From: Eledone cirrhosa
Lineage: Eukaryota
NCBI GenBank assembly: GCA_964016885.1
Contig: OZ024743.1
Span: forward strand, 142,848,001 to 142,912,000
Reading direction: 5' to 3'
DNA: 64,000 nucleotides
Shown here: in pieces, positions 1-64,000 of the stretch
How positions within the stretch are numbered: the stretch's first letter is position 1
Layout: the number at the start of each line of letters is the position of its first letter
Program-made: the position numbers and the translations under genes
Notes under the pieces: model-generated
The model's database searches: none
The model's input: only the letters and a program-made list of their open reading frames with translations
Told to the model about the DNA's origin: nothing

Positions 1-3000
1 GCACCAAACACCAAGCACCAAGCACGAAGCACCAAACACCAAGCACCAAACACTTAACACCAAGCACCAAGCACCAAGTACCAAACACCAAGCACCAAAC
101 ACCAAACACCAAGCACCAAACACCAAGCACCAAGCACCAAACACCAAACACCAAGCACCAAGCACCAAACACCAAGCACCAAGCACCAAGCACCAAACAC
201 CAAAGACCAAGCACCAAGCACCTAGCACCAAACACAAAGCACCAGGCACCAAGCCCCAAACACCAAGCACCATGCACCAAACACCAAGCACCAAGCACCA
301 AGCACCAAACACCAAGCACCAAGCACCAAACACTTAACACCAAGTACCAAGCACCAAGTACCAAACACCAAGCCCCAAACACCAAACACCAAGCACCAAA
401 CACCAAGCACCAAGCACCAAACACCAAGCACCAAGCACCAAGCACCAAACACCAAGAACCAAGCACCAAACACCAAGCACCAAGCACCAAGTACATACAC
501 CAAGCACCAAACACCAAACACAAAACACCAAGCACCAAGCAACAAGCATCAAACACCAAGCATCAAACACCAAACACCAAGTACCAAGCACCAAACACCA
601 AACACCAAGCACCAAGCACCAAGCACCAAACACCATACACCCAGCACCAAACACCAAGCACAAAGCACCAAACACCAAACACAAAGCACCAAACACCAAA
701 CACCAAGCACCAAGCACCAAACACCAAACACCAAGCCCCTAGCACCAAAAACCTAACACCAAGTACCAAGCACCAAGCACCAAGCACCGAACACCAAGCA
801 CCAAACACCAAGCACCAAACACCAAGCACCAAGCACCAAACACCAAACACCAAGCACCAAGCACCAAGCATCAAGCACCAGGCACCAAGCCCCAAACATC
901 AAGCACCATGCACCAAACACCAAGCACCAAGCACCAAGCACCAAACACGAAGCACCAAGCACCAAACACTTAACACCAAGCACCAAGCACCAAGCACCAA
1001 ACACCAAGCACCAAACACCAAACACCAAGCACCAAGTACCAAACACCAAGCACCAAGCACCAAACACCAAGCACCAAGCACCAAGCACCAAACACCAAGA
1101 ACCAAGCACCAAACACCAAGCACCAAGCACCAAGTACATACACCAAGCACCAAACACCAAGCACCAAACACCAAGCACCAAGCACCAAACACCAAACACC
1201 AAACACCAAACACCAAACACCAACCACCAAGCACCAAACACCAAACACCAAACAGCAAGCACCAAGCACCAAACACCAAGCACCAAGCACCAAGCACCAA
1301 ACACCAAGCACCAAGCAGCAAGCACCAAACACCAAGCGCCAAGCACCAAACACCAAACACTAATAACCAAGCACCAAGCACCAAGAACCAAACACCAAGC
1401 ACCAAGTACCAAGCACCAAACACCAAAGACCAAGCACCAAGCACCTAGCACCAAACACAAAGCACCAGGCACCAAGCCCCAAACAACAAGCACCATGCAC
1501 CAAACACCAAGCACCAAGCACGAAGCACCAAACACCAAGCACCAAACACTTAACACCAAGCACCAAGCACCAAGTACCAAACACCAAGCACCAAACACCA
1601 AACACCAAACACCAAGCACCAAACACCAAGCACCAAGCACCAAGCACCAAACACCAAGAACCAAGCACCAAACACCAAGCACCAAGTACATACACCAAGC
1701 ACCAAACACCAAACACAAAACACCAAGCACCAAGCAACAAGCATCAAACACCAAGCATCAAACACCAAACACCAAGTACCAAGCACCAAACAACAAACAC
1801 CAAGCACCAAGCACCAAGCACCAAACACCATACACCCAGCACCAAACACTAAGCACAAAGCACCAAGCACCAAACACCAAGCACCAAACACCAAACACCA
1901 AACACTAAGCACCAACACCAAACACCAAAACCCAAACACTAGACCCCAAGCACGAAACACCAAACACCAAATACCAAGCACCAAGCACCAAAGACTAATC
2001 ACCAAGCACCAAGCACCAAACAACAAGCACCAAGCACCAAGCACCAAACACAGAACACCAAGCACCAAGCACCAAGCACCAAGCACCAAGCATCAAACAC
2101 CAAACACCAAGCACCAAACACCAAACACCAAGCACTAAGCACCAAGCACCAAGCACCAATCACCAAACACCAAGCACCAAGCACCAAACACCAAGCACCA
2201 GGCACCAAGCACCAAACACCAAGCACCAAGCACCAAACACCAAACACCAAGCACCAAAGACCAAGCACCTAGCACCAAACAACAAGCACCAAGCACCAAG
2301 CACCAAACACCAAGCACCAAGCACCATGCACCAAAAACCAAGCACCAAGCACCAAGCACCAAACACCAAACACCAAGCACCAAAGACCAAGCACCAAGCA
2401 CCAAACAACAAGCACCAAGCACCAAGCAGCAAGCACCAAACACCAAACACCAAGCACCAAGCACCAAACACCAAGCACCAAGGACCAAACATCAAACACC
2501 AAGCACCAAGCACCAAACACCTAACACCAAGCACCAAGCACCAAGCACCAAGCACCGAACACCAAGCACCAAACACCAAGCACCAAACACCAAGCACCAA
2601 GCACCAAACACCAAGCACCAAACACAAAGCACCAAGCAGCAAGCAACAAACACCAAGCACCAGGCACCAAGCACCAAACACCAAGCACCATGCACCAAGC
2701 ACCAAGCCCCAAACACTTAACACCAAGCACCAAACACCAAGCACCAAGCACCAAACACCAAGCACCAAAGACCAAACACCAAGCACCAAGTACCAAACAC
2801 CAAGCACCAAGCACCAAACACCAAGCACCAAGCACCAATCACCAAATACCAAGCACCAAACACCAAACACCAAGCACCAAGCACCAAGCACCAAACACCA
2901 AGCACCAAACACCAAGCACCAAACACCAAGTCCCACGCACCAAGCACCAAACACCAAACACCAAGCACCAAGCACCAAACACCAAGCACCAAGCCCCAAG

Positions 3001-5581
3001 CCCCTAGCACCAAACACCAAACACCAAGCACCAAGCACAAAACACCAAGCACCAATCACCAAGCACCAAACACCAAGCAGCAAGCAGCAAGCACCAAACA
3101 CCAAACACCAAGCACCAAGCACCAAATACCAAACACCAAGCACCAAGGACCAAACATCAAACACCAAGCACCAAGCACCAAACGCCTAACACCAAGCACC
3201 AAGCACCTAGCACCAAACACAAAGCACCAGGCACCAAGCCCCAAACACCAAGCACCATGCACCAAACACCAAGCACCAAGCACGAAGCACCAGACACCAA
3301 GCACCAAGCACCATACACCAAACACCAAACACCAAACACCAAGCACCAAGACCGAAGCACCAAACATCAAGCACCAAACTCCTAACACAAAACACCAAGC
3401 ACCAAGCAGCAAGCACCACACACAAAACACCTAGCACCAAGCACCAAACACCAAACACCAAGCACCAAGGACCAAACATCAAACACCAAGCACCAAGCAC
3501 CAAACACCTAACACCAAGCACCAAGCATCAAGCACCAAGGACCAAACACCAAGCATCAAACACAAAGCACCAAGCACCAAACACCAAGCACCAAGCACCA
3601 AACACCAAGCACCAAGCACCAAACACCAAACCCCAAGCACCAAACACCAAACCCCAAGCACCAAGCACCAAACACTAATCACCAAGCACCAAGCATCAAA
3701 CAACAAGCACCAAGCACCAAGCACCAGGCACCAAGCACCAAGCACCAAACACTAATCACCAAGCACCAAGCACCAAGCACAAACACCAATCACCAAGCAC
3801 CAAGCACCAAACACCAAGCACCAAGCACCAAACACCAAACACCAAGCACCAAAGACCAAGCACCAAGCACCAAGCACCAAGCACCAAACCCCATGCACCA
3901 ACCACCAAGCACCAAACACCAAGCACCAAGCACCAAACACCAACCACCCAGCACCAAGCACCAAGCACCAAACACCAAGCACCAAACACCAAACACCAAA
4001 CACGAAGCACCAAGCACCAAGCACCAAACACCAAGCACCAAGCACAAAGCACCAAACACCAAGCCCCAAGCACCAAGCACCAAACACCAAACACCAAGCA
4101 CCAAGCACCAAACCCCAAGCACCAAGCACCAAATACCTAGCACCAAACACCAAACAACAAGCACCAAATACCCAACACCAAGCACCAATCACCAAGCACC
4201 AAACACCAAGCAGCAAGCAACAAGCACCAAACACCAAACACCAAGCACCAAGCACCAAACACCAAGCACCAAGCATCAAACATCAAACACCAAGCACCAA
4301 GCACCAATCACCTAACACCAAGCACCAAACACCAAGCACCAAGCACCGAACACCAAGCACCAAACACCAAGCACCAAACACCAAGCACCAAGCACCAAAT
4401 ACCAAGCACCAAACACCAAGCACCAAGCACCAAGCACCAAACACCAAGCACCAGGCACCAAGCACCAAACACCAAGCACCATGCACCAAGCACCAAGCCC
4501 CAAACACTTAAACACCAAGCACCAAGCACCAAGCATCAAACACCAAGCATCAAAAACCAAACACCAAGCACCAAGTACCAAACACCAAGCACCAAGCACC
4601 AAACACCAAGCACCAAGCACCAATCACCAAACACCAAGAACCAAGCACCAAACACCAAGAACCAAGCAACAAGTACATACACCAAGCACGAAACACCAAA
4701 CACAAAACACCAAGCACCAAGCAACAAGCATCAAACACCAAGCATCAAACACCAAACAACAAGCACCAAGCACCAAACACCAAACACCAAGCACCACGCA
4801 CCAAGCACAAAACACCAAGCACTCAGCACCAAACACCAAGCACCAAACACCAAGCACCAAACACCAAACACCAAGCACCAAGCACCAAAACCCAAACACC
4901 AAGCACCAAGCACCAAACACCAAACACCAAACACCAGACACCAAGCACCAAACACCAAACACCAAACACCAAGCACCAAGCACCAAACACCAAACACCAA
5001 GCACCAAGCACCAAACAGCAAACCCCAAGCACCAAGCACCAAACACTAATCACCAAGCACCAAGCACCAAATACCAAGCACCAAACACCAAGCACCAAGC
5101 ACCAAGCACCAAACACCAAGCACCAGGCACCAAGCACCAAACACCAAGCACCATGCACCAAGCACCAAGCCCCAAACACTTAACACCAAGCACCAAGCAC
5201 CAAGCATCAAACACGAAGCATCAAAAACCAAACACCAAGCACAAAGTACCAAACACCAAGCACCAAGCACCAAACACCAAGCACCAAGCACCAATCACCA
5301 AACACCAAGAACCAAGCACCAAACACCAAGAACCAAGCACGAAGTACATACACCAAGCACCAAACACCAAACACAAAACACCAAGCACCAAGCAACAAGC
5401 ATCAAACACCAAGCGTCAAACACCAAACACCAAGCACCAAGCACCAAACACCAAACACCACGCACCAAGCACAAAACACCAAGCACTCAGCACCAAACAC
5501 CAAGCACCAAACACCAAGCACCAAACACCAAACACCAAGCACCAAGCACCAAAACCCAAACACCAAGCACCAAGCACCAAA

Positions 5582-8500
5582 CACCAAACACCAAGCACCA
5601 AGCACCAAACACCAAGCACCAAGCACCAAACAGCAAACCCCAAGCACCAAGCACCAAACACTAATCACCAAGCACCAAGCACCAAACAACAAGCACCAAG
5701 CACCAAGCACCAGGCACCAAGCACCAAGCACCAAACACAAAACACCAAGCACCAAGCACCAAGCAGCACACACCAAGCATCAAACACCAAACACCCAACA
5801 CCAAGCACCAAACACCAAACACCAAGCACTAAGCACCAAGCACCAAGCACCAAACTCCAAGCACCCAGCACCAAACAACAATCACCAAGCACCAAGCACC
5901 AAACACCAAATACCAAGCACCAAGCACCAAGCACCAAACACCAAACACCAAGCACCAAACACCAGACACCAAGCAGCAAACACCAAACACCAAGCACCAA
6001 GCACCAAACAGCATACAACAAGCACCAGGCACCAAGCACCAAACACCAAACACCAAGCACCAAGCACCAAACACCAAGCACCAAGCACCAAATGCCAAAC
6101 ACCAAGCACCAAGCACAAAGCACCAAACACCAAACACCAAACACCAAACAGCAAACACCAAACACCAAACAGCAAAAACCAAATACGAAACAGCAAACAC
6201 CATACAGCAAACACCAAACACCAAAAAGCAGACACCAAACAGCAAACACCAAACAGCAAACACCAAACACCAAACACCAAGCACCAAGCACCAACCACCA
6301 AACTCCAAGCACCAAAGACCAAGCACCAAGCACCAAGCACCAAGCACCAAACAACAAGCACCAAGCACCAAGCACCAAACACCAAGCACCAAGCACCAAA
6401 CACCAACCACCCAGCACCAAGCACCAAGCACCAAACACCAAACACTAAACACCAAGCACCAAGCACCAAGCACCAAACACCAAGCCCCAAGCACCAAGCA
6501 CCAAACACCAAACACCAAGCACCAAGCACCAAACACCAAGCCCCAAGCACCAAGCACCAAACACCAAACATCAAGCACCAAGCACCAAACACCAAACACC
6601 AAGCACCAAACACCAAACACCAAGCACCAAGGACCCAACATCAAACACCAAGCACCTAGCACCAAACACCAAACACCAAGCCCCAAGCACCAAGCACCAA
6701 GCACCGAACACCAAGCCCCAAACACCAAGCACCAAACACCAAGCACCAAACATCAAACACTAAGTCCCACGCACCAAGCACCAAACAACAAACAGCAAGC
6801 ACCAAGCACCAAGCACCAAGCCCCTATCACCAAACACCAAACACCAAGCACCAAGCACAAAAGACCAAGCACCAATCACCAAGCACCAAACACCAAGCAG
6901 CAAGCAGCAAGCACCAAACACCAAACACCAATCACCAAGCACCAAACACCAAACACCAAGCACCAAGGACCAAACAACAAACACCAAGCATCAAGCACCA
7001 AACACCTAACACCAAGCACCAAGCACCAAGCACCAAGCACCAAACACCAAGCACCAATCACCAAACACCAAGCACCAAGCACCAAACACCAAGCACCAGG
7101 CACCAAGCACCAAACACCAAGCACCAAGCACCAAACACCAAGCACCAAGACCGAAGCACCAAACACCAAGCACCAAACTCCAAACACAAAACACCAAGCA
7201 CCAGGCAGCAAGCATCAAACACCAAACACCAAGCACCAAGCACCAAGCACCAAACACCAAGCACCAAACACCAAGCACCAAACACCAAGTCCCACGCACC
7301 AAGCACCAAACACCAAACACCAAGCACCAAGCATCAAACACCAAGCACCAAGCAGCAAGCACCAAACACCAAACACCAAGCACCAACCACCAACCACCAA
7401 ACACCAAGCACCAAGCACCAAACACCAAACCCCAAGCACCAAAGACCAAGCACCAAGCACCAAGGACCAAACACCAAGTACCAAGCACCAAGCACCAAGC
7501 ACCAAGCACCAAACACCAAGCACCAAGCACCAAACACCCAGCACCAAGCACCAAGCACCAAACACCAAGCACCAAGCACCAAACACCAAACACCAAACAC
7601 CAAGCACCAAGCACCAAACAGCAAGCACCAAGCACCAAACACCAAGCACCAAGCACCAAACAACAAACACCAAGGACCATGCACCAAACACTAAACACCA
7701 AACTGCAAACACCAAACACCAAACAGCAAAAACCAAATACGAAACAGCAAACACCATACAGCAAACACCAAACACCAAACACCAAACACCAAACACCAAA
7801 CAGCAAGCACCAAACAGCAAACAGCAAACAGCAGACGCCAAACACCAAGCACCAAGCACCAGGCACCAAACACCAAGCACCAAGCACCAACCACCAAACT
7901 CCAAGCACCAAAGACCAAGCACCAAGCACCAAGCACCAAACAACAAGCACCAAGCACCAAGCACCAAACACCAAGCACCAAGCACCAAACACCAACCACC
8001 CAGCACCAAGCTCCAAGCACCAAACACCAAGCACCAAACACCAAACACTAAACACCAAGCACCAAGCACCAGACACCAAGCCCCAAGCACCAAGCACCAA
8101 ACACCAAACACCAAGCACCAGGCACCAAACACCTAGCCCCAAGCACCAAGCACCAAACACCAAACATCAAGCACCAAGCACCAAACACCAAACACCAAGC
8201 ACCAAAGACCAAACACCAAGCACCAAGGACCCAACATCAAACACCAAGCACCAAGCACCAAACGCCAAACACCAAGCCCCAAGCACCAAGCACCAAGCAC
8301 CAAGCACCGAACACCAAGCCCCAAACACCAAGCACCAAACACCAAGCACCAAACACCAAACACTAAGTCCCACGCACCAAGCACCAAACACCAAACAGCA
8401 AGCACCAAGCACCAAACACCAAGCACCAAGCACCAAGCCCCTAGCACCAAACACCAAACACCAAGCACCAAGCACAAAACACCAAGCACCAATCACCAAG

Positions 8501-11500
8501 CACCAAACACCAAGCAGCAAGCAGCAAGCACCAAACACCAAACACCAAGCACCAAGCACCAAACACCAAACACCAAGCACCAAGCACCAAACATCAAACA
8601 CCAAGCACCAAGCACCAAACACCTAACACCAAGCACCAAGCACCAAGCACCAAGCACCAAACACCAAGCACCAATCACCAAACACCAAGCACCAAGCACC
8701 AAACACCAAGCACCAGGCACCAAGCACCAAGCACCAAACACCAAACACCAAGCACCAAGCACCAAACATCAAACACCAAGCACCAAGCACCAAACACCTA
8801 ACACCAAGCACCAAGCACCAAGCACCAAGCACCAAACACCAAGCACCAATCACCAAACACCAAGCACCAAGCACCAAACACCAAGCACCAAGCACCAAAC
8901 AGCAAACCCCAAGCACCAAGCACCAAACACTAATCACCAAGCACCAAGCACCAAACAACAAGCACCAAGCACCAAGCACCAGGCACCAAGCACCAAGCAC
9001 CAAACACAAAACACCAAGCACCAAGCACCAAGCAGCACACACCAAGCATCAAACACCAAACACCCAACACCAAGCACCAAACACCAAACACCAAGCACTA
9101 AGCACCAAGCACCAAGCACCAAACTCCAAGCACCCAGCACCAAACAACAATCACCAAGCACCAAGCACCAAACACCAAATACCAAGCACCAAGCACCAAG
9201 CACCAAACACCAAACACCAAGCACCAAACACCAGACACCAAGCAGCAAACACCAAACACCAAGCACCAAGCACCAAACAGCATACAACAAGCACCAGGCA
9301 CCAAGCACCAAACACCAAACACCAAGCACCAAGCACCAAACACCAAGCACCAAGCACCAAATGCCAAACACCAAGCACCAAGCACAAAGCACCAAACACC
9401 AAACACCAAACACCAAACAGCAAACACCAAACACCAAACAGCAAAAACCAAATACGAAACAGCAAACACCATACAGCAAACACCAAACACCAAAAAGCAG
9501 ACACCAAACAGCAAACACCAAACAGCAAACACCAAACACCAAACACCAAGCACCAAGCACCAACCACCAAACTCCAAGCACCAAAGACCAAGCACCAAGC
9601 ACCAAGCACCAAGCACCAAACAACAAGCACCAAGCACCAAGCACCAAACACCAAGCACCAAGCACCAAACACCAACCACCCAGCACCAAGCACCAAGCAC
9701 CAAACACCAAACACTAAACACCAAGCACCAAGCACCAAACACCAAGCCCCAAGCACCAAGCACCAAACACCAAACACCAAGCACCAAGCACCAAACACCA
9801 AGCCCCAAGCACCAAGCACCAAACACCAAACATCAAGCACCAAGCACCAAACACCAAACACCAAGCACCAAACACCAAACACCAAGCACCAAGGACCCAA
9901 CATCAAACACCAAGCACCTAGCACCAAACACCAAACACCAAGCCCCAAGCACCAAGCACCAAGCACCGAACACCAAGCCCCAAACACCAAGCACCAAACA
10001 CCAAGCACCAAACATCAAACACTAAGTCCCACGCACCAAGCACCAAACAACAAACAGCAAGCACCAAGCACCAAGCACCAAGCCCCTATCACCAAACACC
10101 AAACACCAAGCACCAAGCACCAAACACCAAACACCAAGCACCAAGGACCAAACAACAAACACCAAGCATCAAGCACCAAACACCTAACACCAAGCACCAA
10201 GCACCAAGCACCAAGCACCAAACACCAAGCACCAATCACCAAACACCAAGCACCAAGCACCAAACACCAAGCACCAGGCACCAAGCACCAAACACCAAGC
10301 ACCAAGCACCAAACACCAAGCACCAAGACCGAAGCACCAAACACCAAGCACCAAACTCCAAACACAAAACACCAAGCACCAGGCAGCAAGCATCAAACAC
10401 CAAACACCAAGCACCAAGCACCAAGCACCAAACACCAAGCACCAAACACCAAGCACCAAACACCAAGTCCCACGCACCAAGCACCAAACACCAAACACCA
10501 AGCACCAAGCATCAAACACCAAGCACCAAGCAGCAAGCACCAAACACCAAACACCAAGCACCAACCACCAACCACCAAACACCAAGCACCAAGCACCAAA
10601 CACCAAACCCCAAGCACCAAAGACCAAGCACCAAGCACCAAGGACCAAACACCAAGTACCAAGCACCAAGCACCAAGCACCAAGCACCAAACACCAAGCA
10701 CCAAGCACCAAACACCCAGCACCAAGCACCAAGCACCAAACACCAAGCACCAAGCACCAAACACCAAACACCAAACACCAAGCACCAAGCACCAAACAGC
10801 AAGCACCAAGCACCAAACACCAAGCACCAAGCACCAAACAACAAACACCAAGGACCATGCACCAAACACTAAACACCAAACTGCAAACACCAAACACCAA
10901 ACAGCAAAAACCAAATACGAAACAGCAAACACCATACAGCAAACACCAAACACCAAACACCAAACACCAAACACCAAACAGCAAGCACCAAACAGCAAAC
11001 AGCAAACAGCAAACGCCAAACACCAAGCACCAAGCACCAGGCACCAAACACCAAGCACCAAGCACCAACCACCAAACTCCAAGCACCAAAGACCAAGCAC
11101 CAAGCACCAAGCACCAAACAACAAGCACCAAGCACCAAGCACCAAACACCAAGCACCAAGCACCAAACACCAACCACCCAGCACCAAGCTCCAAGCACCA
11201 AACACCAAGCACCAAACACCAAACACTAAACACCAAGCACCAAGCACCAGACACCAAGCCCCAAGCACCAAGCACCAAACACCAAACACCAAGCACCAGG
11301 CACCAAACACCTAGCCCCAAGCACCAAGCACCAAACACCAAACATCAAGCACCAAGCACCAAACACCAAACACCAAGCACCAAAGACCAAACACCAAGCA
11401 CCAAGGACCCAACATCAAACACCAAGCACCAAGCACCAAACGCCAAACACCAAGCCCCAAGCACCAAGCACCAAGCACCAAGCACCGAACACCAAGCCCC

Positions 11501-11908
11501 AAACACCAAGCACCAAACACCAAGCACCAAACACCAAACACTAAGTCCCACGCACCAAGCACCAAACACCAAACAGCAAGCACCAAGCACCAAACACCAA
11601 GCACCAAGCACCAAGCCCCTAGCACCAAACACCAAACACCAAGCACCAAGCACAAAACACCAAGCACCAATCACCAAGCACCAAACACCAAGCAGCAAGC
11701 AGCAAGCACCAAACACCAAACACCAAGCACCAAGCACCAAACACCAAACACCAAGCACCAAGCACCAAACATCAAACACCAAGCACCAAGCACCAAACAC
11801 CTAACACCAAGCACCAAGCACCAAGCACCAAGCACCAAACACCAAGCACCAATCACCAAACACCAAGCACCAAGCACCAAACACCAAGCACCAGGCACCA
11901 AGCACCAA
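5582..11908 (+). repeat. HOR duplication A: about 5582-8730 copied at about 8851-11908 (offsets 3269, then 3262, then 3178)
   Basis: Matching ORF pairs 5665/8934 (+3269), 6571/9833 (+3262), and 7006/10184, 7679/10857, 8167/11345 (+3178). Rare markers CCCCTATC (6821/10083) and AAACTGCAAAC are shared. Confidence 0.93.
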
Positions 11909-42468: not shown

Positions 42469-42508
42469 ACCAAGCACCAAGCACCAAGCTTGGTGCTTGG
42501 TGCTTGGT
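42469..42508. repeat. Spacer-less inversion junction: perfect 40-bp palindrome centred on AAG|CTT (42486-42491)
   Basis: ...ACCAAGCACCAAGCACCAAG|CTTGGTGCTTGGTGCTTGGT... has 20-bp exact arms, with the first mismatch at 42509 (A). Confidence 0.97.
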
Positions 42509-52100: not shown

Positions 52101-54241
52101 GTTTGCTGCTTGGTTCTTGGTGTTTGGTGATTGGTGCTTGGTACTTGGTGTTTGGTGCTCGGTGCTTGGTGCTTGGTGTTTCATGCTTGGTGCTTGGTGT
52201 TTGGTCTTTGGCACTTGGTGCTTGGTGTTTGGTGCTTGGTGCTTGGTGTTTGGTGTTTGGTGTTTGGTGCTTGGTGCTTGGTGCTTGGTGTTTGGTGTTT
52301 GCTGCTTGGTTCTTGGTGCATGGTGCCTGGTGTTTGGTGTTCGGAGTTTGGTACTTGGTGCTTGGTGTTTGGTGTTTGGTGCTTGGTGCTTGGTGTTTGG
52401 TGTTTAGTGCTTGGTGCTTGGTGTTAGTTGTTTGGTGTTTAGTGCTTGGTGCTTGGTATTTGGTGTTTGGTGCTTGGTGCTTGGTGTTTGGTGTTTGGTG
52501 CTTGGTGCTTGGTGTTTGGTGTTTGCTGCTTGGTTCTTGGTGCTTGGTGCCTGGTGTTTGGTGTTCGGAGTTTGGTACTTGGTGCTTGGTGTTTGGTGCT
52601 TGGTGCTTGGTGTTTGGTGTTTAGTGATTGGTGCTTGGTGTTTGGTGTTTGGTGCTTGGTCCTTGGTGTGTGGTGCTTGGTCCTTGGTGCTTGGTTTTTG
52701 GTGCTTGGTGCTTTGTGCTTGGTGCTTGGTGTTTGGTGCTTGGTGCTTGGCGTTTGGTTCTTGGTGCTTGGTGCTTGGTGTTTGGTGCTTGGTGCTTGGT
52801 GCTTGGTGTTTGGTGTTTAGGGCTTGGTGCTTGGTGATTGGTGCTTGTTGCTTGGTGCTTGGTGTTTGGTGCTTGGTGCTTTGTGTTTGGTGTTGGGTGT
52901 TTGCTGTTTGCTGTTTGGTGTTTGCTGTTTGGTGTTTGCTGTTTGGTGTTTGCTGTTTGGTGTTTGGTGTTTGGTGTTTGCTGTTTGGTGTTTGGTGTTT
53001 GCAGTTTGGTGTTTGGTGTTTTGTGTTTGGTGTTTAGTGTTTGCTGTTTGGTGTTTGGTGTTTGGTGTTTGGTGTTTGCTGGTTGGTGTTTGCTGTTTAG
53101 TGTTTGGTGTTTGGTGTTTGGTGTTTGGTGCTTGGGGCTTGGTGTTTGCTCTTTGGTGCTTGGTGATTGGTTTTTGGTGTTTGGTGCTCGGTGCTTGGTG
53201 TATGCTGTTTGGTGCTTGGTGCTTGGTGCTTGGTGCTTGGTATTTGGTGTTTTGTGTTTGGTGCTTGGTGCTTTGTGCTTGGTGCTTGGTGGTTGGTGCT
53301 TGGTGTTTGGTGTTTGGAGCTTGGTGCTTGGTGTTTTGTGCTTGGTGCCTGGTGATTGGTGTTTGGTGTTTGGTGCTTGGTGTTTGGTTGTTTGGTGTTT
53401 GGTGTTTGTGTTTGCTGTTTGGCGTTTGCTGTTTGGTGTTTGCTGTTTGGTGTTTGCTGGTTGGTGTTTGCTGTTTAGTGTTTGGTGTTTGGTGTTTGGT
53501 GTTTGGTGCTTGGGGCTTGGTGTTTGCTCTTTGGTGCTTGGTGATTGGTTTTTGGTGTTTGGTGCTCGGTGCTTGGTGTATGCTGTTTGGTGCTTGGTGC
53601 TTGGTGCTTGGTGCTTGGTATTTGGTGTTTGGTGCTTGGTGCTTGGTGTTTGGTGTTTCGTGCTTGGTGCTTGGTTCTGGGTGCTTGGTGCTTGGTGTTT
53701 GGTGTTTGGTGCTTGACGCTTGGTGTTTGGTGCTTGGGGCTTGGTGATTGGTGTTTGGTGCTTGGTGATTGGTGCTTGGTGTTTGGTGTTTGGTGCTTGG
53801 TGCTTGGTGTTCGGTGTTTGGTGCTTGGCGTTTGGGGTATGGCGTTTGCTGTTTGGCGTTTGGGTTTTGGCATTTGCTTTTTTGGCGTTTGGTGCTTGGC
53901 GTTTGCTGTTTGGTGTTTGCTTTTTAGTGTTTGGTGTTTGGTGTTTGCTGGTTGGTGTTTGGTGCTTGGGGCTTGGTGTTTGTACTTGGTGCTTGGTGCT
54001 CCGTGTTTGGTGCTTGGTGTTTGGTGCTTGGTTCTTGGTGTTTGGTGCTCGGTGCTTGGTGCTTGGTGTTTGGTGCTTGGTGCTTGGCGCTTGGTGTTTG
54101 GCATTTAGTGCTTGGTGCTTGGTGTTTGGTGTTTGGTGCTTGGTGCTAGGTGTTTGGTGTTTGGTGCTTGGTGCTTGGTGTTTGGCGTTTCGTGCTTGGC
54201 GCTTGCTGTTTGGCGTTTGGTGTTTGGCGTTTGCTGTTTGG
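46156..54241 (-). repeat. HOR tandem duplication D: about 46156-50240 copied at about 50241-54241 (offsets 4085, 4092, about 4239)
   Basis: ORF pairs 46256/50341 (+4085), 46771/50863, 47318/51410, 48354/52446 (+4092), and 49306/53545 (+4239). Markers TTAGGCATCTGGTGGCTGGC and GGTTTTTTTCTC are shared. Confidence 0.94.
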
Positions 54242-57200
54242 TGTTTGGTGTCTGGTGTTTGGTGATTGGTGTTTGGTGTTTGGTGTTTGGTGTTTGGTGT
54301 TTGGTGCTTGGCGCTTGGTGCTTGGTGTTTTGTGCTTGGTGCTTGGTGTTTGGTGTTTGGTGTTTGGTGTTTGTGTTTGCTGTTTGGCGTTTGCTGTTTG
54401 GTGTTTGCTGTTTGGTGTTTCCTGGTTGGTGTTTGGTGTTTGCTATTTGGTGTTTGGTGTTTGCTCTTTGGTGTTTGGTGTTTAGTGTTTGCTGTTTGGT
54501 GTTTGGTGTTTGGTGTTTGGTGCTTGGGGCTTGGTGTTTGCTCTTTGGTGCTTGGTGATTGGTTTTTGGTGTTTGGTGCTTGGTGCTTGGTGTATGGTGT
54601 TTAGTGCTTGGTGCTTGGTGCTTGGTGCTTGGTGTTTGGTGTTTGGTCCTTGGTGCTTGGTGTTTGGTGTTTGGTGCTTGGTGCTTGGTTCTGGGTGCTT
54701 GGTGCTTGGTGTTTGGTTTTTGGTGCTTGGTGCTTGGTGTTTGGTGCTTGGGGCTTGGTGATTGGTGTTTGGTGCTTGGTGCTTGGTGTTTGGTGCTTGG
54801 TGTTCGGTGCTTGGTGCTTGGTGCTAGGTGTTTGGTGTTTGGTGTTTGCCGCTTGGTGCTTGGTGTTTGGTGCTTGGTGCTTGGTGTTTGGTGTTTAGTG
54901 CTTGGTGCTAGGTGCTTGGTGCTTGGTGTTTGGTGTTTGGTGCTTGGAGCTTGGTGTTTGGTGTTTGGTGCTTGGTGCTTTGTTCTGGGTGCTTGGTGCT
55001 TGGTGTTTGGTGTATGGTGCTGGGTGCTTGCTGTTTGGTGCTTGGGGCTTGGTTCTTGGTGTTTGGTGCTTGGTGCTTGGTGCTAGGTGTTTGGTTTTTG
55101 GTGTTTGGCGCTTGGTGCTTGGTGTTTGGTGATTGGTCCTTGGTGTTTGGTGTTTGGTGCTTGGTGCTTGGTGTTTGGTATTTGGTGCTTGGCACTTGGT
55201 GTTTGGTGTTTGGTCCTTGGCGTTTACTGTTTGGCGTTTGGGGTTTGGCGTTTGCTTTTTGGCGTTTGCTGTTTGGTGTTTGGTGCTTGGTGTTTGGTGT
55301 TTGGTACTTGGTGCTTGGTGTTTGGTGTTTGGTGCTTGGTGCTTGGTGTTTGGTGTTTGTTGCTTGGCGCTTGGTCTTTGGTGTTTGGCGCTTGGCGTTT
55401 GCTGTTTGGCGTTTGGGGTTTGGCATTTGCTGTTTGGCGTTTGGGGTTTGGTGTTTGCTGTTTGGTGTTTGCTGTTTGGTGTTTGCTGTTTGGTGTTTGG
55501 TGTTTGGTGTTTGCTGGTTGGTGTTTGGTGTTTAGTGTTTGCTGTTTGGTGTTTGCTGTTTGGTGCTTGGTGCTTGGTGTTTGGTGCATGGTGCTTGGTG
55601 CTTGGTGCTTGGTGTTTGGTGCTTGGTGCTTGGTGTTTGGTGCTTGGGGCTTGGTGCTTGGTGTTTGGTGCTTGGTCTTTGGTGTTTCCTGGTTGGTGTT
55701 TGGTGTTTGCTGTTTGGTGTTTGGTGTTCGCTGTTTGGTATTTTCTATTTGTTGTTTTGTGTTTGCTGTTTGGTGTTTGGTGTTTAGTGTTTGCTATTTG
55801 GTGTTTGGTGTTTTGTGTTTGGTGCTTGGGGCTTGGTGTTTGCTCTTTGGTGCTTGGTGATTGGTTTTTGGTGTTTGGTGCTTGGTGCTTGGTGTTTGGT
55901 GCTTGGTGCTTGGTGTTTGGTGCTTGGTGCTTGGTGTTTGGTGTTTGGTGCTTGGTGTTTGCTGTTTGGTGATTGGTTCTTGGTGTTTGGTGCTTGATGC
56001 TTGGTGTTTGGTGCTTGGTGGTTGGTGCTTGATGTTTGGTGCTTGGTGCTTGGTGTTTGGTGTTTGGCGCTTGGTGCTTGGTGTTTGGTGCTTGGTGCTT
56101 GGTGTTTGGTGTTTGGTGCTTGGTGCTTGCTGTCTGGTGTTTGGTGCTTGGTTCTTGGTGTTTGGTGATTGGTGCCTGGTACTTGGTGTTTGGTGCTCGG
56201 TGCTTGGTGCTTGGTGTTTCGTGCTTGGTGCTTGGTGTTTGGTCTTTGACGCTTGGTGCTTGGTGTTTGGTGCTTGGTACTTGGTGTTCGGTGTTTGGTG
56301 TTAGGTGTTTGGTGCTTGGTGCTTGGTGCTTGGTTTTTGGTGTTTGGTGCTTGGTGCTTGGTGTTTGGTGTTTGGTGCTTGGTGCTAGGTGTTTGGTGTT
56401 TGGTGCTTGGTGCTTGGTGTTTAGCGTTTCGTGCTTGGCGCTTGCTGTTTGGCGTTTGGTGTTTGGCGTTTGCTGTTTGGCGTTTGGTGTTTGGCGTTTG
56501 ATGTTTGGCGTTTGCTGTTTGGTGTTTGGTGTTTGGTGTTTGCTGTTTGGTGTTTGCTGTTTGGTGTTTGGTGTTTGCTGTTTGGTGTTTGGTGTTTGCT
56601 GTTTGCTGTTTGCTGTTTGGTGTTTGGTGTTTGGTGTTTGGTGCTTGGTGCTTGGTGCTTGGTATTTGGTGCTTGGTGCTTATTGTTTGGTGTTTGGCGC
56701 TTGGTGCTTGGTGTTTGGGGCTTGGTGTTTGGTGCTTGTTGCTTGGCGTTTGGTGCTTGGTGCTTTGTGCTTGGTGTTTGGTGCTTGGTGCTTGGTGCTT
56801 GGTGTTTGGTGTTTAGTGCTTGGTGCTTGGTGATTGGTGCTTATTGATTGGTGCTTGGTGTTTGGTGCTTGGTGTTTGGTGTTTGGTGTTTGGTGTTTGC
56901 TGTTTGCTGTTTGGTGTTTGCTGTTTGGTGTTTGTTGTTTGGTGTTTGCTGTTTGGTGTTTGCTATTTGGTGTTTGGTGTTTGCTGTTTGCTGTTTGGTG
57001 TTTGGTGTTTGCTGTTTGGCGTTTGGTGTTTGGCGTTTGCTGTTAGGCATCTGGTGGCTGGCATTTGCTGTTTGGCGTTTGTTGTTTGGTGTTTGGTGTT
57101 TGCTGTTTGCTGTTTGGTGTTTGCTGTTTGCTGTTTGTTTGGTGTTTGCTGTTTGGTGTTTGGTGTTTGCTGTTTGCTGTTTGGTGTTTGGTGTTTGGTG

Positions 57201-60200
57201 TTTGCTGTTTGGTGTTTGGTGTTTACTGTTTGGTGTTTGGTGTTTGTTGTTTGGTGATTGGTGTTTGCTGTTTGGTGTTTGGTGTTTGGTGATTGGTGTT
57301 TGCTGTTTGGTGTTTGGTGCCTGGTGTTTGGTGTTTGGTGATTGGTGCTTGGTGCTTGGTGTTTGGTGCTTGGTGCTTGGTGCTTGGTGCTTGGTGCTTG
57401 GTGTTTGGTGTTTGGTGCTTGATGCTTGGTGTTTGGTGTTTGGTGATTGGTGTTTGGTGTTTGGTGCTTGGTGCTTGGTGCTTGGTGTTTGGTGTTTAGT
57501 GTTTGCTGTTTGGTGTTTGGTGTTTGCTGTTTGGTGTTTGCTATTTGGTGTTTGCTGTTTGCTGTTTGCTGTGTGGTGTTTGGTGTTTGGTGATTGGTGC
57601 TTGGTGCTTGGTGTTTGGTGCTTGGTGCTTGGTGCTTGGTGCTTGGTGCTTGGTGCTTGGTATTTGGTGCTTGGTGCTTATTGTTTGGTGTTTGGCGCTT
57701 GGTGCTTGGTGTTTGGTGCTTGGTGCTTGGTGTTTGTTGTTTGGTGCTTGGTGTTTGGTGCTTGGAGCTTGGTGCTTGGTGTTTGGTGCTTGGTGCTTGG
57801 TGCTTGGTGCTTCGCGTCTGGTGCTTGGTATTTGGTGCTTGGTGTTTGGTGCTTGGTGCTTGGTTCTTGGTGTTTGGTGCTTGGTGGTTGGTGCTTGGTG
57901 CTTGGTATTTGGTGTTTGGTGCTTGGTGCTTGTAGTTTGGTGTTTGGTGCTTGGTGCTTGATGTTTGGTGTTTGGTGCTTGGTGCTTGGTGTTTGGTGAT
58001 TGCTGCTTGGTGCTTGGTGTTTGGTGCTTGGTGGTTGGTGCTTGGTGTTTGGTGCTTGGTGCTTGGTGTTCGGTGTTTGGCGCTTGGTGCTTGGTTCTTG
58101 GTGTTTGGTGCTTGGTGCTTGGTGTTTGGTGTTTAGTGCTTGGTGCTTGGTTCTTGGTGTTTGGTGCTTGGTGCCTGGTGATTGGTGTTTGGTGCTTGGT
58201 GCTTGGTATTTGGGGCTTGGTCTTTGGTGCTTGGTGTTTGGAGCTTGGTGCTTGGTGCTTGGTGTTTGGTGCTTGGTGCTTGGTGCTAGGTGTTTGGTGT
58301 TTAGTGCTTGGTGCTTGGTGATTGGTGCTTGTTGCTTGGTCTTGGTGTTTGCTGCTTGGTGCTTGGTGTTTGGTGTTTGGTGTTTGCTGTTTGCTGTTTG
58401 GTGTTTGCTGTTTGGTGTTTGCTGTTTGGTGTTTGCTGTTTGGTGTTTGGTGTTTGGTGTTTGCTGTTTGGTGTTTGGTGTTTGCTGTTTGGTGTTTGGT
58501 GTCTGGTGTTTGGTGATTGGTGTTTGGTGTTTGGTGTTTGGTGTTTGGTGTTTGGTGCTTGGCGCTTGGTGCTTGGTGTTTTGTGCTTGGTGCTTGGTGT
58601 TTGGTGTTTGGTGTTTGGTGTTTGTGTTTGCTGTTTGGCGTTTGCTGTTTGGTGTTTGCTGTTTGGTGTTTCCTGGTTGGTGTTTGGTGTTTGCTATTTG
58701 GTGTTTGGTGTTTGCTCTTTGGTGTTTGGTGTTTAGTGTTTGCTGTTTGGTGTTTGGTGTTTGGTGTTTGGTGCTTGGGGCTTGGTGTTTGCTCTTTGGT
58801 GCTTGGTGATTGGTTTTTGGTGTTTGGTGCTTGGTGCTTGGTGTATGGTGTTTAGTGCTTGGTGCTTGGTGCTTGGTGCTTGGTGTTTGGTGTTTGGTCC
58901 TTGGTGCTTGGTGTTTGGTGTTTGGTGCTTGGTGCTTGGTTCTGGGTGCTTGGTGCTTGGTGTTTGGTTTTTGGTGCTTGGTGCTTGGTGTTTGGTGCTT
59001 GGGGCTTGGTGATTGGTGTTTGGTGCTTGGTGCTTGGTGTTTGGTGCTTGGTGTTCGGTGCTTGGTGCTTGGTGCTAGGTGTTTGGTGTTTGGTGTTTGC
59101 CGCTTGGTGCTTGGTGTTTGGTGCTTGGTGCTTGGTGTTTGGTGTTTGGTGCTTGGTGCTAGGTGCTTGGTGCTTGGTGTTTGGTGTTTGGTGCTTGGAG
59201 CTTGGTGTTTGGTGTTTGGTGCTTGGTGCTTTGTTCTGGGTGCTTGGTGCTTGGTGTTTGGTGTATGGTGCTGGGTGCTTGCTGTTTGGTGCTTGGGGCT
59301 TGGTTTTTGGTGTTTGGTGCTTGGTGCTTGGTGCTAGGTGTTTGGTGATTGGTCCTTGGTGTTTGGTGTTTGGTGCTTGGTGCTTGGTGTTTGGTATTTG
59401 GTGCTTGGCACTTGGTGTTTGGTGTTTGGTCCTTGGCGTTTACTGTTTGGCGTTTGGGGTTTGGCGTTTGCTTTTTGGCGTTTGCTGTTTGGTGTTTGGT
59501 GCTTGGTGTTTGGTGTTTGGTACTTGGTGCTTGGTGTTTGGTGTTTGGTGCTTGGTGCTTGGTGTTTGGTGTTTGTTGCTTGGCGCTTGGTCTTTGGTGT
59601 TTGGCGCTTGGCGTTTGCTGTTTGGCGTTTGGGGTTTGGCATTTGCTGTTTGGCGTTTGGGGTTTGGTGTTTGCTGTTTGGTGTTTGCTGTTTGGTGTTT
59701 GCTGTTTGGTGTTTGGTGTTTGGTGTTTGCTGGTTGGTGTTTGGTGTTTAGTGTTTGCTGTTTGGTGTTTGCTGTTTGGTGCTTGGTGCTTGGTGTTTGG
59801 TGCATGGTGCTTGGTGCTTGGTGCTTGGTGTTTGGTGCTTGGTGCTTGGTGTTTGGTGCTTGGGGCTTGGTGCTTGGTGTTTGGTGCTTGGTCTTTGGTG
59901 TTTCCTGGTTGGTGTTTGGTGTTTGCTGTTTGGTGTTTGGTGTTCGCTGTTTGGTATTTTCTATTTGTTGTTTTGTGTTTGCTGTTTGGTGTTTGGTGTT
60001 TAGGGTTTGCTATTTGGTGTTTGGTGTTTTGTGTTTGGTGCTTGGGGCTTGGTGTTTGCTCTTTGGTGCTTGGTGATTGGTTTTTGGTGTTTGGTGCTTG
60101 GTGCTTGGTGTTTGGTGCTTGGTGCTTGGTGTTTGGTGCTTGGTGCTTGGTGTTTGGTGTTTGGTGTTTGGTGCTTGGTGTTTGCTGTTTGGTGATTGGT

Positions 60201-60550
60201 TCTTGGTGTTTGGTGCTTGGTGTTTGGTGCTTGGTGGTTGGTGCTTGATGTTTGGTGCTTGGTGCTTGGTGTTTGGTGTTTGGCGCTTGGTGCTTGGTGT
60301 TTGGTGCTTGGTGCTTGGTGTTTGGTGTTTGGTGCTTGGTGCTTGCTGTCTGGTGTTTGGTGCTTGGTTCTTGGTGTTTGGTGATTGGTGCCTGGTACTT
60401 GGTGTTTGGTGCTCGGTGCTTGGTGCTTGGTGTTTCGTGCTTGGTGCTTGGTGTTTGGTCTTTGACGCTTGGTGCTTGGTGTTTGGTGCTTGGTACTTGG
60501 TGTTCGGTGTTTGGTGTTAGGTGTTTGGTGCTTGGTGCTTGGTGCTTGGT
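54240..60550 (-). repeat. HOR duplication E: about 54240-56330 copied at about 58490-60550 (offsets 4251, then 4216)
   Basis: ORF pairs 54266/58517, 54489/58740 (+4251) and 55224/59440, 55539/59755, 56036/60252 (+4216). Marker GGTATTTTCTATTTGTTG is shared. Confidence 0.9.
56360..57450 (-). repeat. Dispersed copy of about 49880-50970 (offset 6479)
   Basis: Identical ORFs 50341/56820, 50355/56834, 50586/57065. Marker AGGCATCTGG occurs at 50566 and 57045. Confidence 0.88.
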
Positions 60551-60889
60551 TTTTGGTGTTTGGTGCTTGGTGCTTGGTGTTTGGTGTTTGGTGATTGGTG
60601 CTTGGTGTTTGGTGCTTGGGATTTGGTGCTTGGTGCTTGGTGTTTGGTGTTTGGAGTTTGGTACTTGGTGCTTGGTGTTTGCTGTTTGGTGCTTGGTGCT
60701 TGGTATTTGGTGTTTAGTGCTTGGTGCTTGGTTCTTGGTGTTTGGTGCTTGGTGCCTGGTGATTGGTGTTTGGTGCTTGGTGCTTGGTATTTGGGGCTTG
60801 GTCTTTGGTGCTTGGTGTTTGGTGCTTGGTGGTTGGTGCTTGGTGTTTGGTGCTTGGTGCTTGGTGCTAGATGTTTGGTTTTTAGTGCT

Positions 60890-63800
60890 TGGTGCTTGGT
60901 GATTGGTGTTTGTTGCTTGGTGCTTGGTGTTTGGTGCTTGGTGCTTGGTGTTTGGTGTTTGGTGTTTGGTGTTTGCTGTTTGGTGTTTGCTGTTTGGTGT
61001 CTGCTGTTTGGTGTTTGCTGTTTCGTGTTTGCTGTTTGGTGTTTGGTGTTTGGTGTTTGCTGTTTGGTGTTTGGTGTTTGCTGTTTGGTGTTTGGTGTCT
61101 GGTATTTGGTGATTGGTGTTTGCTGTTTGGTGTTTGGTGTTTGGTGTTTGGTGCTTGGCGCTTGGTGCTTGGTGTTTTGTGCTTGGTGCTTGGTGCTTGG
61201 TGTTTGGTGTTTGGTGTTTGTGTTTGCTGTTTGGCGTTTGCTGTTTGGTGTTTGCTGTTTGGTGTTTCCTGGTTGGTGTTTGGTGTTTGCTATTTGGTGT
61301 CTGGTGTTTGCTGTTTGGTGTTTGGTGTTTAGTGTTTGTTGTTTGGTGTTTGGTGTTTGGTGTTTGGTGCTTGGGGCTTGGTGTTTGCTCTTTGGTGCTT
61401 GGTGATTGGTTTTTGGTGTTTGGTGCTTGGTGCTTGGTGTATGGTGTTTGGTGCTTGGTGCTTGGTGCTTGGTGCTTGGTGTTTGGTGTTTGGTGCTTGG
61501 TGCTTGGTGTTTGGTGTTTGGTGCTTGGTGCTTGGTTCTGGGTGCATGGTGCTTGGTGTTTGGTGTTTGGTGCTTGGAGCTTGGTGTTTGGTGCTTGGGG
61601 CTTGGTGATTGGTGTTTGGTGCTTGGTGCTTGGTGCTTGGTGCTTGGTGCTTGGTGTTTGGTGCTTGGTGTTCGGCGCTTGGTGATTGGTGCTAGGTGTT
61701 TGGTGTTTGGTGTTTGGCGCTTGGTGCTTGGTGTTTGGTGATTGGTGCTTGGTGTTTGGTGTTTGGTGCTTGGTGCTTGGTGTTTGGTGTTTGGTGCTTG
61801 GTGCTTGGTGTTTGGTGTTTGGTGCTTGGTGTTTGGTCCTTGGAGCTTGGTGCTTGGTTTTTGGTGCTTGGGGCTTGGTGCTTGGTGCTTGGTGTCTGGT
61901 GCTTGGTGCTTGGTGTTTGGTGTTTGGTGCTTTGTACTTGGTGTTTGGTGTTTGGTGTTTGGTGTTTGGTGCTTGGTACTTGTTGTTTTATGTTTGGTGC
62001 TTGGTGCTTGGTGCTTGGTGTTTGGTGCTTGGTGCTTGATGCTTGGTGCTTGGTGCTTGGTGTTTGGTGTTTAGTGCTTGGTGCTTGGTATTTGGTGTTT
62101 GGTGCTTGGTGCTTGGTGTTTGGTGTTTGGTGCTTGGTGCTTGCTGTTTGGTGTTTGGTGCTTGCTGCTTGGTGTTTGGTGATTGGTGTTTGCTGTTTGG
62201 TGTTTGCTGTTTGGTGTTTGCTGTTTCGTGTTTGCTGTTTGGTGTTTGGTGTTTGGTGTTTGCTGTTTGGTGTTTGGTGTTTGCTGTTTGGTGTTTGGTG
62301 TCTGGTGTCTGGTGATTGGTGTTTGGTGTTTGGTGTTTGGTGTTTGGTGTTTGGTGCTTGGCGCTTGGTGCTTGGTGTTTTGTGCTTGGTGCTTGGTGCT
62401 TGGTGTTTGGTGTTTGTGTTTGCTGTTTGGCGTTTGCTGTTTGGTGTTTGCTGTTTGGTGCTTGGCGCTTGGTGCTTGGTGTTTGGTGCATGGTGCTTGG
62501 TGCTTGGTGCTTGGTGTTTGGTGCTTGGTGCTTGGTGTTTGGTGCTTGGGGCTTGGTGCTTGGTGTTTGGTGCTTGGTCTTTGGTGTTTCCTGGTTGGTG
62601 TTTGGTGTTTGCTATTTGCTGTTTGGTGTTTGCTGTTTGGTGTTTGGTGTTTAGTGTTTGCTGTTTGGTGTTTGGTGTTTGGTGCTTGGGGCTTGGTGTT
62701 TGCTCTTTGGTGCTTGGTGATTGGTTTTTGGTGTTTGGTGCTTGGTGCTTGGTGTATGGTGTTTGGTGCTTGGTGCTTGGTGCTTGGTGCTTGGTGTTTG
62801 GTGTTTGGTGCTTGGTGCTTGGTGTTTAGTGTTTGGTGCTTGGTGCTTGGTTCTGGGTGCTTGGTGCTTGGTGTTTGGTGTTTGGTGCTTGGTGCTTGGT
62901 GTTTGGAGCTTGGGGCTTGGTGATTGGTGTTTGGTGCTTGGTGCTTGGTGCTTGGTGCTTGGTGTTTGGTGCTTGGTGTTCGGTGCTTGGTGCTTGGTGC
63001 TAGGTGTTTGGTGTTTGGTGTTTGGCGCTTGGTGCTTGGTGTTTGGTGCTTGGTGCTTGGTGTTTGGTGTTTGGTGCTTGGTGCTTGGTGCTTGGTGCTT
63101 GGTGTTTGGTGTTTGGTGCTTGGAGCTTGGTGTTTGGTGTTTGGTGGTTGGTGCTTTGTTCTGGGTGCTTGGTGCTTGGTGTTTGGTGTATGGTGCTGGG
63201 TGCTTGCTGTTTGGTGCTTGGGGCTTGGTGCTTGGTGTTTGGTGCTTGGTGCTTGGTGCTAGGTGTATGGTGTTTGGTGTTTGGCGCTTGGTGCTTGGTG
63301 TTTGGTGATTGGTCCTTGGTGTTTGGTGTTTGGTGCTTGGTGCTTGGTGTTTGGTATTTGGTGCTTGGCGCTTGGTGTTTGGTGTTTGGTCCTTGGCGTT
63401 TGCTGTATGGCGTTTGGGGTTTGGCGTTTGCTTTTTGGCGTTTGCTGTTTGGTGTTTGGTGCTTGGTGTTTGGTGTTTGGTACTTGGTGCTTGGTGTTTG
63501 GTGTTTGGTGCTTGGTGCTTGGTGTTTGGTGTTTGGCGCTTGGCGTTTGCTGTTTGGCGTTTGGGGTTTGGCATTTGCTGTTTGGCGTTTGGGGTTTGGC
63601 GTTTGCTTTTTGGCGTTTGGTGTTTCGTGTTTGGTGTTTGGTGTTTGCTGTTTGGTTTTTGCTGTTTGGTGTTTGCTGTTTGGTGTTTGGTGTTTGGTGT
63701 TTGCTGGTTGGTGTTTGGTGTTTGGTGTTTGCTGTTTGGTGTTTGCTGTTTGGTGCTTGGTGCTTGGTGTTTGGTGCATGGTGCTTGGTGCTTGGTGCTT

Positions 63801-64000
63801 GGTGTTTGGTGCTTGGTGCTTGGTGTTTGGTGCTTGGGGCTTGGTGCTTGGTGTTTGGTGCTTGGTCTTTGGTGTTTCCTGGTTGGTGTTTGGTGTTTGC
63901 TGTTTGCTGTTTGGTGTTTGCTGTTTGGTATTTGCTATTTGGTGTTTTGTGTTTGCTGTTTAGTGTTTGGTGTTTAGTGTTTGCTATTTGGTGTTTGGTG
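60890..64000 (-). repeat. More diverged, shuffled copies of HOR E modules (offsets about 2596, 1315 and 3960)
   Basis: Related ORFs 58740/61336, 58810/61406/62721 and 59349/63309. Recurrent markers TTTCCTGGTTGG, GGTTCTGGGTGC and TTGTTCTGGG. Confidence 0.75.

What the first reader, a model, noticed from the sequence alone, without database searches (positions are those of the whole stretch)
1..64000. Binary G/A monomer pattern carries nested kb-scale higher-order structure on a 7-bp base
Seen: nearly all variation is one two-state position (CACCAAG vs CACCAAA) plus rare variants, and this pattern is copied faithfully at 3.2, 7.5, 5-6, 4.1 and 4.25 kb periods. Established: the same principle underlies human HSat2/HSat3, where a CATTC-derived unit has kb-scale periods such as DYZ1. 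Inference: the array grows by long segmental copying (unequal exchange, break-induced replication or rolling circle) and not only by monomer slippage. I do not recognise CACCAAR as a named satellite, so it may be an undescribed centromeric or pericentromeric family.
Basis: partly seen in the sequence, partly recalled or inferred. Interest (0 to 1): 0.7.

Follow-up and report, generated by a model that had tools for sequence, protein, structure and literature searches.

The report
Cephalopod 7-base satellite with megabase copies
This window is a small piece of a 14.6-million-base block of one 7-letter repeat on a giant chromosome of a cephalopod (likely an octopus), which likely grew by copying pieces of every size up to a million bases, as some human satellites do; whether it lies at a centromere is untested.

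Summary
The 7-bp CACCAAR satellite and every named period (3178, 7459, 5014, 4092, 4216-4251) are real and far beyond shuffled controls. Two parts are overstated. The G/A position gives 57% of departures from consensus, not nearly all. Each period is one local duplication of at most two copies, absent from the matching arms of nine sister copies, so these are not family-wide higher-order repeats. The window sits in a 14.6-Mb array on a 379-Mb chromosome of a cephalopod. Its strand switch (42488/42489) exists as ten separately diverged copies (0.25-0.88%), paired with a second junction found ten times. They mark a roughly 1-1.9-Mb macro-unit holding a 105-256-kb inverted block. The copies differ by scattered substitutions and whole-monomer block indels. 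The satellite is almost confined to this array, and a 25-28-bp satellite on three giant chromosomes is the better centromere candidate. Closest known: human HSat2/3 nested repeats and Yq12 megabase duplications. No description turned up in the papers searched; Dfam, Repbase, nt and reads could not be checked. Up to half the macro-copies could be haplotype duplicates. An earlier scan note read another satellite in this genome similarly. New member of a known kind.

The parts
1..42488 (+). CACCAAR satellite, forward block (about 6070 monomers; 41% CACCAAG, 31% CACCAAA); the 'A arm' of the macro-unit
42469..42508 (.). Inversion junction J1 (centre between 42488 and 42489; 20-bp exact dyad on each side, no inserted DNA); 10 homologous, separately diverged copies at C4:130.4-142.9 Mb
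42489..64000 (-). CACCAAR satellite, inverted block (about 3075 monomers; 33% CACCAAA, 31% CACCAAG, richer in CAGCAAA and CGCCAA variants); the 'B' subfamily
5582..11908 (+). One roughly 3.2-kb tandem duplication seen as periods 3269 (888 bp, 0 mismatches) and 3178 (1798 bp, 1 mismatch)
11386..26316 (+). 7459-bp tandem duplication, exactly 2.00 copies, 0 mismatches in 7472 bp (a very young event or an assembly duplicate)
30788..40480 (+). One roughly 5-kb tandem duplication seen as periods 5049, 5042 and 5014 (8 mismatches in 4667 bp); absent from the matching arm of the other nine junction copies
46156..53882 (-). Roughly 4.1-kb tandem duplication seen as periods 4085, 4092 and 4239; the 4092 period is private to this copy within 10 kb of the junction
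54229..60593 (-). Partial 4.2-kb duplication seen as periods 4251 and 4216 (1.1-1.2 copies per gap-free run)

Best explanation
The window is part of a 14.6-Mb array of one 7-bp satellite, almost confined to one giant chromosome of a cephalopod, that likely grew neutrally by in-register, homology-directed copying at every scale. Inferred: an ancestral array of about 1.3 Mb acquired the inversion once, then multiplied five- to ten-fold in a short interval by unequal exchange or break-induced replication of Mb blocks, while kb duplications kept rewriting each copy. The G/A string would be a passive record of this copying, not a code. The array is most likely heterochromatin beside or between blocks of a 25-28-bp satellite, which is the better centromere candidate; this last step is untested.
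For: Array limits C4:128.823-143.422 Mb. A 42-nt word has 2027 forward and 7420 reverse hits genome-wide; 40 evenly spread 10-kb samples scale to about 1750 and 8940 for this array alone. J1 is found 10 times and each copy has private changes within 2-712 bp of the junction, 0.25-0.88% pairwise over 11,865 columns. J2 is found 10 times, nine of them 105-256 kb from a J1 and one from a replacement junction. Two J2 regions 1.0 Mb apart are collinear over 95 kb. Subfamily order repeats with the junctions. The 29-switch map matches 76 of 76 satellite samples (some samples helped build it). Between copies: 130 substitutions, 45 whole-monomer indels and 4 out-of-register length changes in the first 400 monomers; position 7 takes 46 of 253 variant alleles, the same as each C position. 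Periods differ in every copy and sample. Precedents: iterative 5-Mb duplications in Yq12, hyper-local nested repeats and inversion breakpoints in HSat3, register-preserving indels in Arabidopsis lines.
Against: No reads were laid, so neither the kb duplications nor the Mb copy number is checked outside the assembly; 5 of 27 long runs have no mismatch. A 200-N gap lies at C4:137.411 Mb, and of three copies of each end of an inserted cassette only one pair is in place, so contig order is uncertain. The two best-supported sister pairs (0.25% and 0.36%) could be the two haplotypes. G>A is the commonest change per site among the common bases (20 per 1000 G, against 10 for C>T and 5.6 for A>G), so some conversion or bias at position 7 is possible. 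Sequence cannot separate unequal exchange from break-induced replication or rolling circle. About 1.2 of 14.6 Mb was inspected.
Confidence: 0.68

Rival explanations
1. The 7-bp array is itself the working, chromosome-specific centromere of C4, and its fast turnover reflects kinetochore-associated recombination.
For: 14.6 Mb, young (about 0.5% between macro-copies), with no transposon-like insert in the 414 kb of contiguous array read (window); one large array on the chromosome; the indel-to-substitution ratio (45:130) resembles that in Arabidopsis centromeres (56:208).
Against: Not shared among chromosomes at scale, whereas a 25-28-bp satellite forms arrays at 54-60% of the length of C1, C2 and C4 and was seen at the start and middle of a 2.9-Mb unplaced scaffold. 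Human simple-sequence HSat2/3 arrays with many inversions are pericentromeric. The 25-28-bp satellite was itself not seen on C3 or the small chromosomes in 41 sampled hits, so it is not a proven centromere either.
Confidence: 0.2
2. Part of the structure is made by the assembly: both haplotypes scaffolded in tandem double the macro-unit count, and some perfect kb duplications (such as the 7459-bp one) are false.
For: Sister pairs 130.44/134.53 and 136.17/138.93 are closer than the rest; a gap and split cassette ends; 0 mismatches in 7472 bp.
Against: Ten distinct junction versions need at least five copies per haplotype in a diploid. All junctions read except one are gap-free. Mismatch densities of the 27 long runs are continuous from 0 to 3.7 per kb.
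Confidence: 0.25
3. The G/A string or the inversion junctions are kept by selection as a code or as hairpin-forming protein-binding sites, as proposed for Tribolium macro-dyads.
For: The junction is conserved in ten copies and folds as a strong hairpin; a functional reading of conserved inversion sites is in print.
Against: Junction flanks diverge like the rest of the copy, with changes as close as 2 bp; one J1 is replaced by another junction and one J1 has no J2 partner; blocks of up to 74 monomers are lost or doubled freely; any inversion in a tandem repeat folds this way.
Confidence: 0.05
4. The repeat is a telomere variant or an interstitial telomeric array left by the fusions that made the giant chromosome.
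For: G-rich/C-rich strand asymmetry; four chromosomes of 379-443 Mb beside many of 50-135 Mb.
Against: Chromosome ends carry canonical TTAGGG (3 of 14 ends read; none of the 14 carries the 7-bp repeat); the monomer has no GGG run.
Confidence: 0.03

Closest known systems
Human HSat2/HSat3 nested tandem repeats (Altemose et al., bioRxiv 10.1101/2021.07.12.452052; passages read)
   Same: Simple ancestral unit, multi-Mb arrays (13-28 Mb), kb-scale nested periods that vary hyper-locally, many strand switches in the chr9 HSat3 array.
   Different: Unit unrelated to CATTC; the 7-bp register is still intact (whole-monomer indels); no kb unit runs beyond two copies in the 414 kb read; most switches descend from four founder junctions.
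Human Yq12 DYZ1/DYZ2 heterochromatin (Rhie et al., 10.1101/2022.12.01.518724; Hallast et al., 10.1101/2022.12.01.518658; passages read)
   Same: Iterative tandem duplications of Mb size (up to 5 Mb) ascribed to unequal exchange; two satellites interleaved.
   Different: DYZ1 is a fixed unit of about 3.5 kb in long runs; here the macro-unit is marked by an internal inversion and subfamily order within one satellite, and the second satellite is a minor, partly misassembled island.
Arabidopsis CEN178 mutation spectrum (10.1101/2025.06.02.657473; passages read) and 'heterogeneous HORs' (10.64898/2026.09.17.752431; sections 4 and 6 read)
   Same: Register-preserving indels, tandem duplications as the main structural change, heterogeneous rather than regimented higher-order structure.
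   Different: 178-bp nucleosome-sized monomer on all chromosomes with shown CENH3 binding; their simulations make Mb blocks from kb events, whereas here copied junctions show Mb-scale copying directly.
Tribolium macro-dyad satellites (PMC13081366; passages read)
   Same: Inversion sites that recur with near-identical sequence inside satellite arrays; two interleaved satellites.
   Different: Thousands of sites on all chromosomes with arms of kb to 75 kb there; ten copies per junction, 105-256-kb blocks and one chromosome here, explained by descent.

Membership tests
HSat2/HSat3 (human classical satellites) | Derived from (CATTC)n | tested here: not met
   Monomer is CACCAAR; host is a mollusc.
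Simple-sequence satellite with nested tandem repeats (HSat2/3-like architecture) | Multi-Mb array of a short degenerate unit | tested here: met
   14.6 Mb, 64-79% pure monomers in samples.
Simple-sequence satellite with nested tandem repeats (HSat2/3-like architecture) | kb-scale periodicity that varies along the array | tested here: met
Regimented higher-order repeat (alpha-satellite or DYZ1 type) | One multi-monomer unit repeated many times in tandem | tested here: not met
   At most 2.02 copies in 27 of 27 long runs over 414 kb; periods private to one macro-copy.
Centromeric satellite | Large array on most or all chromosomes | tested here: not met
   The C4 array accounts for about all genome-wide hits; only small blocks at C2:250.9-251.2, C3:4.19 and C4:205.4 Mb were seen. 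Chromosome-specific centromeres are not excluded.
Centromeric satellite | CENP-A occupancy or position at the primary constriction | not testable with these tools
   No ChIP, CUT&Tag, FISH or Hi-C data on hand.
Telomeric or interstitial telomeric repeat | Same unit as the chromosome ends | tested here: not met
   Ends carry TTAGGG at 3 of 14 ends read, the 7-bp repeat at none.
Tribolium-type macro-dyad satellite | Recurrent inversion sites of conserved sequence | tested here: met
   J1 x10, J2 x10, J6 x2.
Tribolium-type macro-dyad satellite | Thousands of dyads with roughly symmetric arms on all chromosomes | tested here: not met
   29 switches on one chromosome; 4.8 Mb forward against 9.8 Mb reverse.
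Any named satellite in Dfam, Repbase or nt | Sequence match to a database entry | not testable with these tools

The most novel reading that the evidence does not exclude
The 7-bp array and the 25-28-bp satellite form one Yq12-like two-satellite block that holds the centromere of a giant octopod chromosome: the first sequence-level centromere candidate in a cephalopod, built from a megabase macro-monomer with a fixed internal inversion, whose ten anchored copies give a natural mutation-accumulation series for a simple satellite.
Probability: 0.25. Interest if true: 0.65.

Novelty: new member of a known kind. Interest (0 to 1): 0.42.

Why it matters
Each mechanism seen here has a precedent in human and plant satellites, so the biology is not surprising. 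The value is twofold. The papers searched describe no cephalopod centromere or large satellite array, and this locus supplies two testable candidates with FISH-ready probes. And the ten copies of one inversion junction are fixed anchors inside an otherwise unalignable repeat, so the mutation spectrum of a 7-bp satellite and the order of its Mb-scale duplications can be read from a single genome.

Tried and rejected
Paper searches with the monomers and dimers found nothing relevant: 0 papers and 4 papers on unrelated subjects (search listing only). Searches for cephalopod satellites or centromeres (listings) and term look-ups in four cephalopod or mollusc papers (passages) showed no description. 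The 325-species centromere atlas has no 'octopus', 'cephalopod' or 'Mollusca' in its main text; its supplementary table of 263 families was not seen and could hold this family. A search on Drosophila simple satellites added nothing. No read support was obtained. The junction hairpin (z = -18) is what any inversion in a tandem repeat gives. Long stop-free frames (up to 942 codons) follow from the monomer. A megablast self-map and one blastn of cassette arms were uninformative and were replaced by k-mer and monomer alignments. Chance 200-350-bp matches between the two blocks were discarded. Look-alikes by sequence in earlier scan notes were bacterial heptamer repeats sharing 3-6 of 144 words and were set aside.
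Full report
Observation. The window is a single 7-bp satellite with a strand switch between 42488 and 42489. The wording 'nearly all variation is one two-state position' is too strong: 69% of 9147 monomers are exact CACCAAG or CACCAAA, there are 162 types, and the G/A difference makes 4336 of 7622 departures from CACCAAG. The G/A string has a decayed 4-monomer rhythm (lag-4 correlation 0.32 and 0.47; AAGG-type words 1.3-1.6 times enriched, alternating words depleted).

What the periods are. Gap-free diagonals give 1.06-2.00 copies for each period, and neighbouring periods (3269/3178, 5049/5042/5014, 4085/4092/4239, 4251/4216) are one duplication cut by small in-register indels. In 414 kb of contiguous array from four places, none of 27 runs of 1.5 kb or more passes 2.02 copies; periods range from 2.0 to 18 kb and mismatches from 0 to 3.7 per kb. 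The 5014 and 4092 periods beside the junction are missing from the matching 10-kb arms of the nine other junction copies, which have their own, and the top periods differ across the 40 spaced samples. They are recent private duplications, not a family-level unit.

Where the window lies. It is G000:C4:142,848,001-142,912,000 in a 3.0-Gb genome with four chromosomes of 379-443 Mb, then contigs of 135 Mb and less, and TTAGGG telomeres. Molluscan haemocyanin genes are present. From recall, not from a call: the best single-unit PDB matches are squid and octopus proteins, seven units per gene is the octopod pattern, and the COX1 translation looks cephalopod. Earlier scan notes also say octopus. The array runs from about 128.823 to 143.422 Mb. 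A 42-nt word has 9447 hits genome-wide; 40 spaced 10-kb samples scale to about 10,700 for this array alone, so no second multi-Mb array is likely in the assembly. Small blocks lie at C2:250.86-251.15, C3:4.19 and C4:205.40 Mb.

The megabase level. The 201 bases around the window's switch (J1) match ten places between 130.4 and 142.9 Mb, two in the window's orientation and eight reversed. The copies are homologous monomer by monomer but each has private changes. A second junction (J2), found by reading two 95-kb stretches that hold no gap or insert, also has ten copies. J2 and J1 bound an inverted block of 105-256 kb; same-orientation J2 copies are 1.0-1.85 Mb apart, once 0.44 Mb. Two J2 regions 1 Mb apart are collinear over 95 kb, and k-mer clustering of 65 samples shows the same order of subfamilies in most intervals between junctions. 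Six markers recur 2.6-2.9 Mb apart (two J2, two J1, J6 at 136.97 and 139.61, J8 at 137.41 and 140.14), and the J1 copies at 136.17 and 138.93 are sisters (bootstrap 97, 9 shared variants). In all, 29 switches alternate without conflict and agree with 76 of 76 satellite samples (not fully independent, and small switch pairs between samples could be missed); 24 of the 29 are copies of four founder junctions.

Mutation between copies. Over the first 400 monomers of both arms (18 pairwise alignments), there are 130 distinct substitutions, 45 whole-monomer indels of 1-74 monomers and 4 out-of-register length changes (the aligner works on monomers, which favours in-register calls). In a longer alignment (11,865 columns kept where at least 7 of 10 copies aligned in runs of 15 or more monomers at 90% identity or better; the rest dropped) pairwise divergence is 0.25-0.88% and the tree is nearly star-shaped. 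Position 7 takes 46 of 253 variant alleles, like each C position (46-50); G/A exchanges there are 22 of 253. G>A is nevertheless the most frequent change per site among the common bases. The binary pattern is thus reshaped mainly by block gain and loss.

A second satellite. A 25-28-bp repeat interrupts the array at 140.07-140.14 Mb, after about 36 kb of a roughly 6.1-kb composite repeat. It forms arrays at C1:251.2-252.1 and 279.2, C2:248.2-251.1 and C4:205.5-206.3 Mb and was seen at the start and middle of a 2.9-Mb unplaced scaffold; 41 sampled hits included none on C3 or the small chromosomes. The cassette's left end occurs at C4:140.04, 142.44 and 205.42 Mb and its right end at C4:137.41 (next to a 200-N gap), C4:140.14 and C2:250.93 Mb. 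Only one left-right pair is in place, so either blocks moved between loci or contigs are misplaced and larger blocks of the second satellite belong inside the 7-bp array.

Mechanism. Shown: copying in register at scales from one monomer to about 2.7 Mb. Inferred: one inversion in an ancestral array of about 1.3 Mb, a quick five- to ten-fold multiplication by unequal exchange or break-induced replication, and continuing kb duplications. Not shown: the repair pathway, any function, centromere status, or that all ten macro-copies are on one haplotype. Five per haplotype is the firm lower bound.

Comparison. It works like human HSat2/3 (nested, hyper-local periods, inversion breakpoints) and Yq12 (iterative duplications up to 5 Mb), with an indel spectrum like Arabidopsis CEN178 and recurrent inversion sites like Tribolium; all were read as passages. 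It is not a member of HSat2/3, not a regimented HOR, not telomeric, and not a shared centromeric satellite in this assembly. No description was found in the library searched; Dfam, Repbase, nt and bioRxiv supplements were out of reach.

Verdict.

Noticed in passing
L143, L158, L168, L170, L172, L173, L193, L205, L206, L209-L211 (C4:140.1 and 205.5-206.3 Mb; C2:248.2-251.1 Mb; C1:251.2-252.1 and 279.2 Mb; C123): A 25-28-bp satellite with two alternating unit types sharing an AAATTATCTCCCC core; arrays near the middle of three giant chromosomes; about 16 Mb by rough scaling (2999 hits; 8 hits in 42 kb). Candidate centromeric family.
   Followed up: partly
L177-L180, L157, L214-L216 (C4:140.036-140.072 Mb; left end also at 142.445 and 205.420 Mb): About six tandem copies of a roughly 6.1-kb composite unit (65-bp doublet, 11-12-bp degenerate repeat, (TA)n, (TTATT)n) between the 7-bp and 25-28-bp satellites.
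   Followed up: partly
L044:1313-7037 (C4:128.816-128.822 Mb): Six tRNA-Arg calls (five TCG, one GCG) directly left of the array start.
   Followed up: no
L043:5075-6200 (C3:4.193 Mb): An isolated, purer block of the 7-bp repeat of about 1.1 kb between AT-rich flanks that look like a split transposon reading frame (not tested); possibly a seed or an escaped copy.
   Followed up: no
C4:137.411 Mb (L191) and C2:251.153 Mb (L171): 200-N scaffold gaps at satellite boundaries; cassette ends are split between C4:137.4, 142.4, 205.4 and C2:250.9 Mb, which hints at misplaced contigs.
   Followed up: partly
contig lengths: Four chromosomes of 379-443 Mb beside many of 50-135 Mb, which suggests repeated fusions in this lineage.
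   Followed up: no
L050, L051 (C2:345.1 Mb); C2:115.2, 163.8 and 206.2 Mb: Nuclear copies of mitochondrial COX1 of different ages.
   Followed up: no
L024 (C4:127.0 Mb), L207, L212, L213, end of L171: Other unrelated short-unit tandem repeats near these arrays.
   Followed up: no
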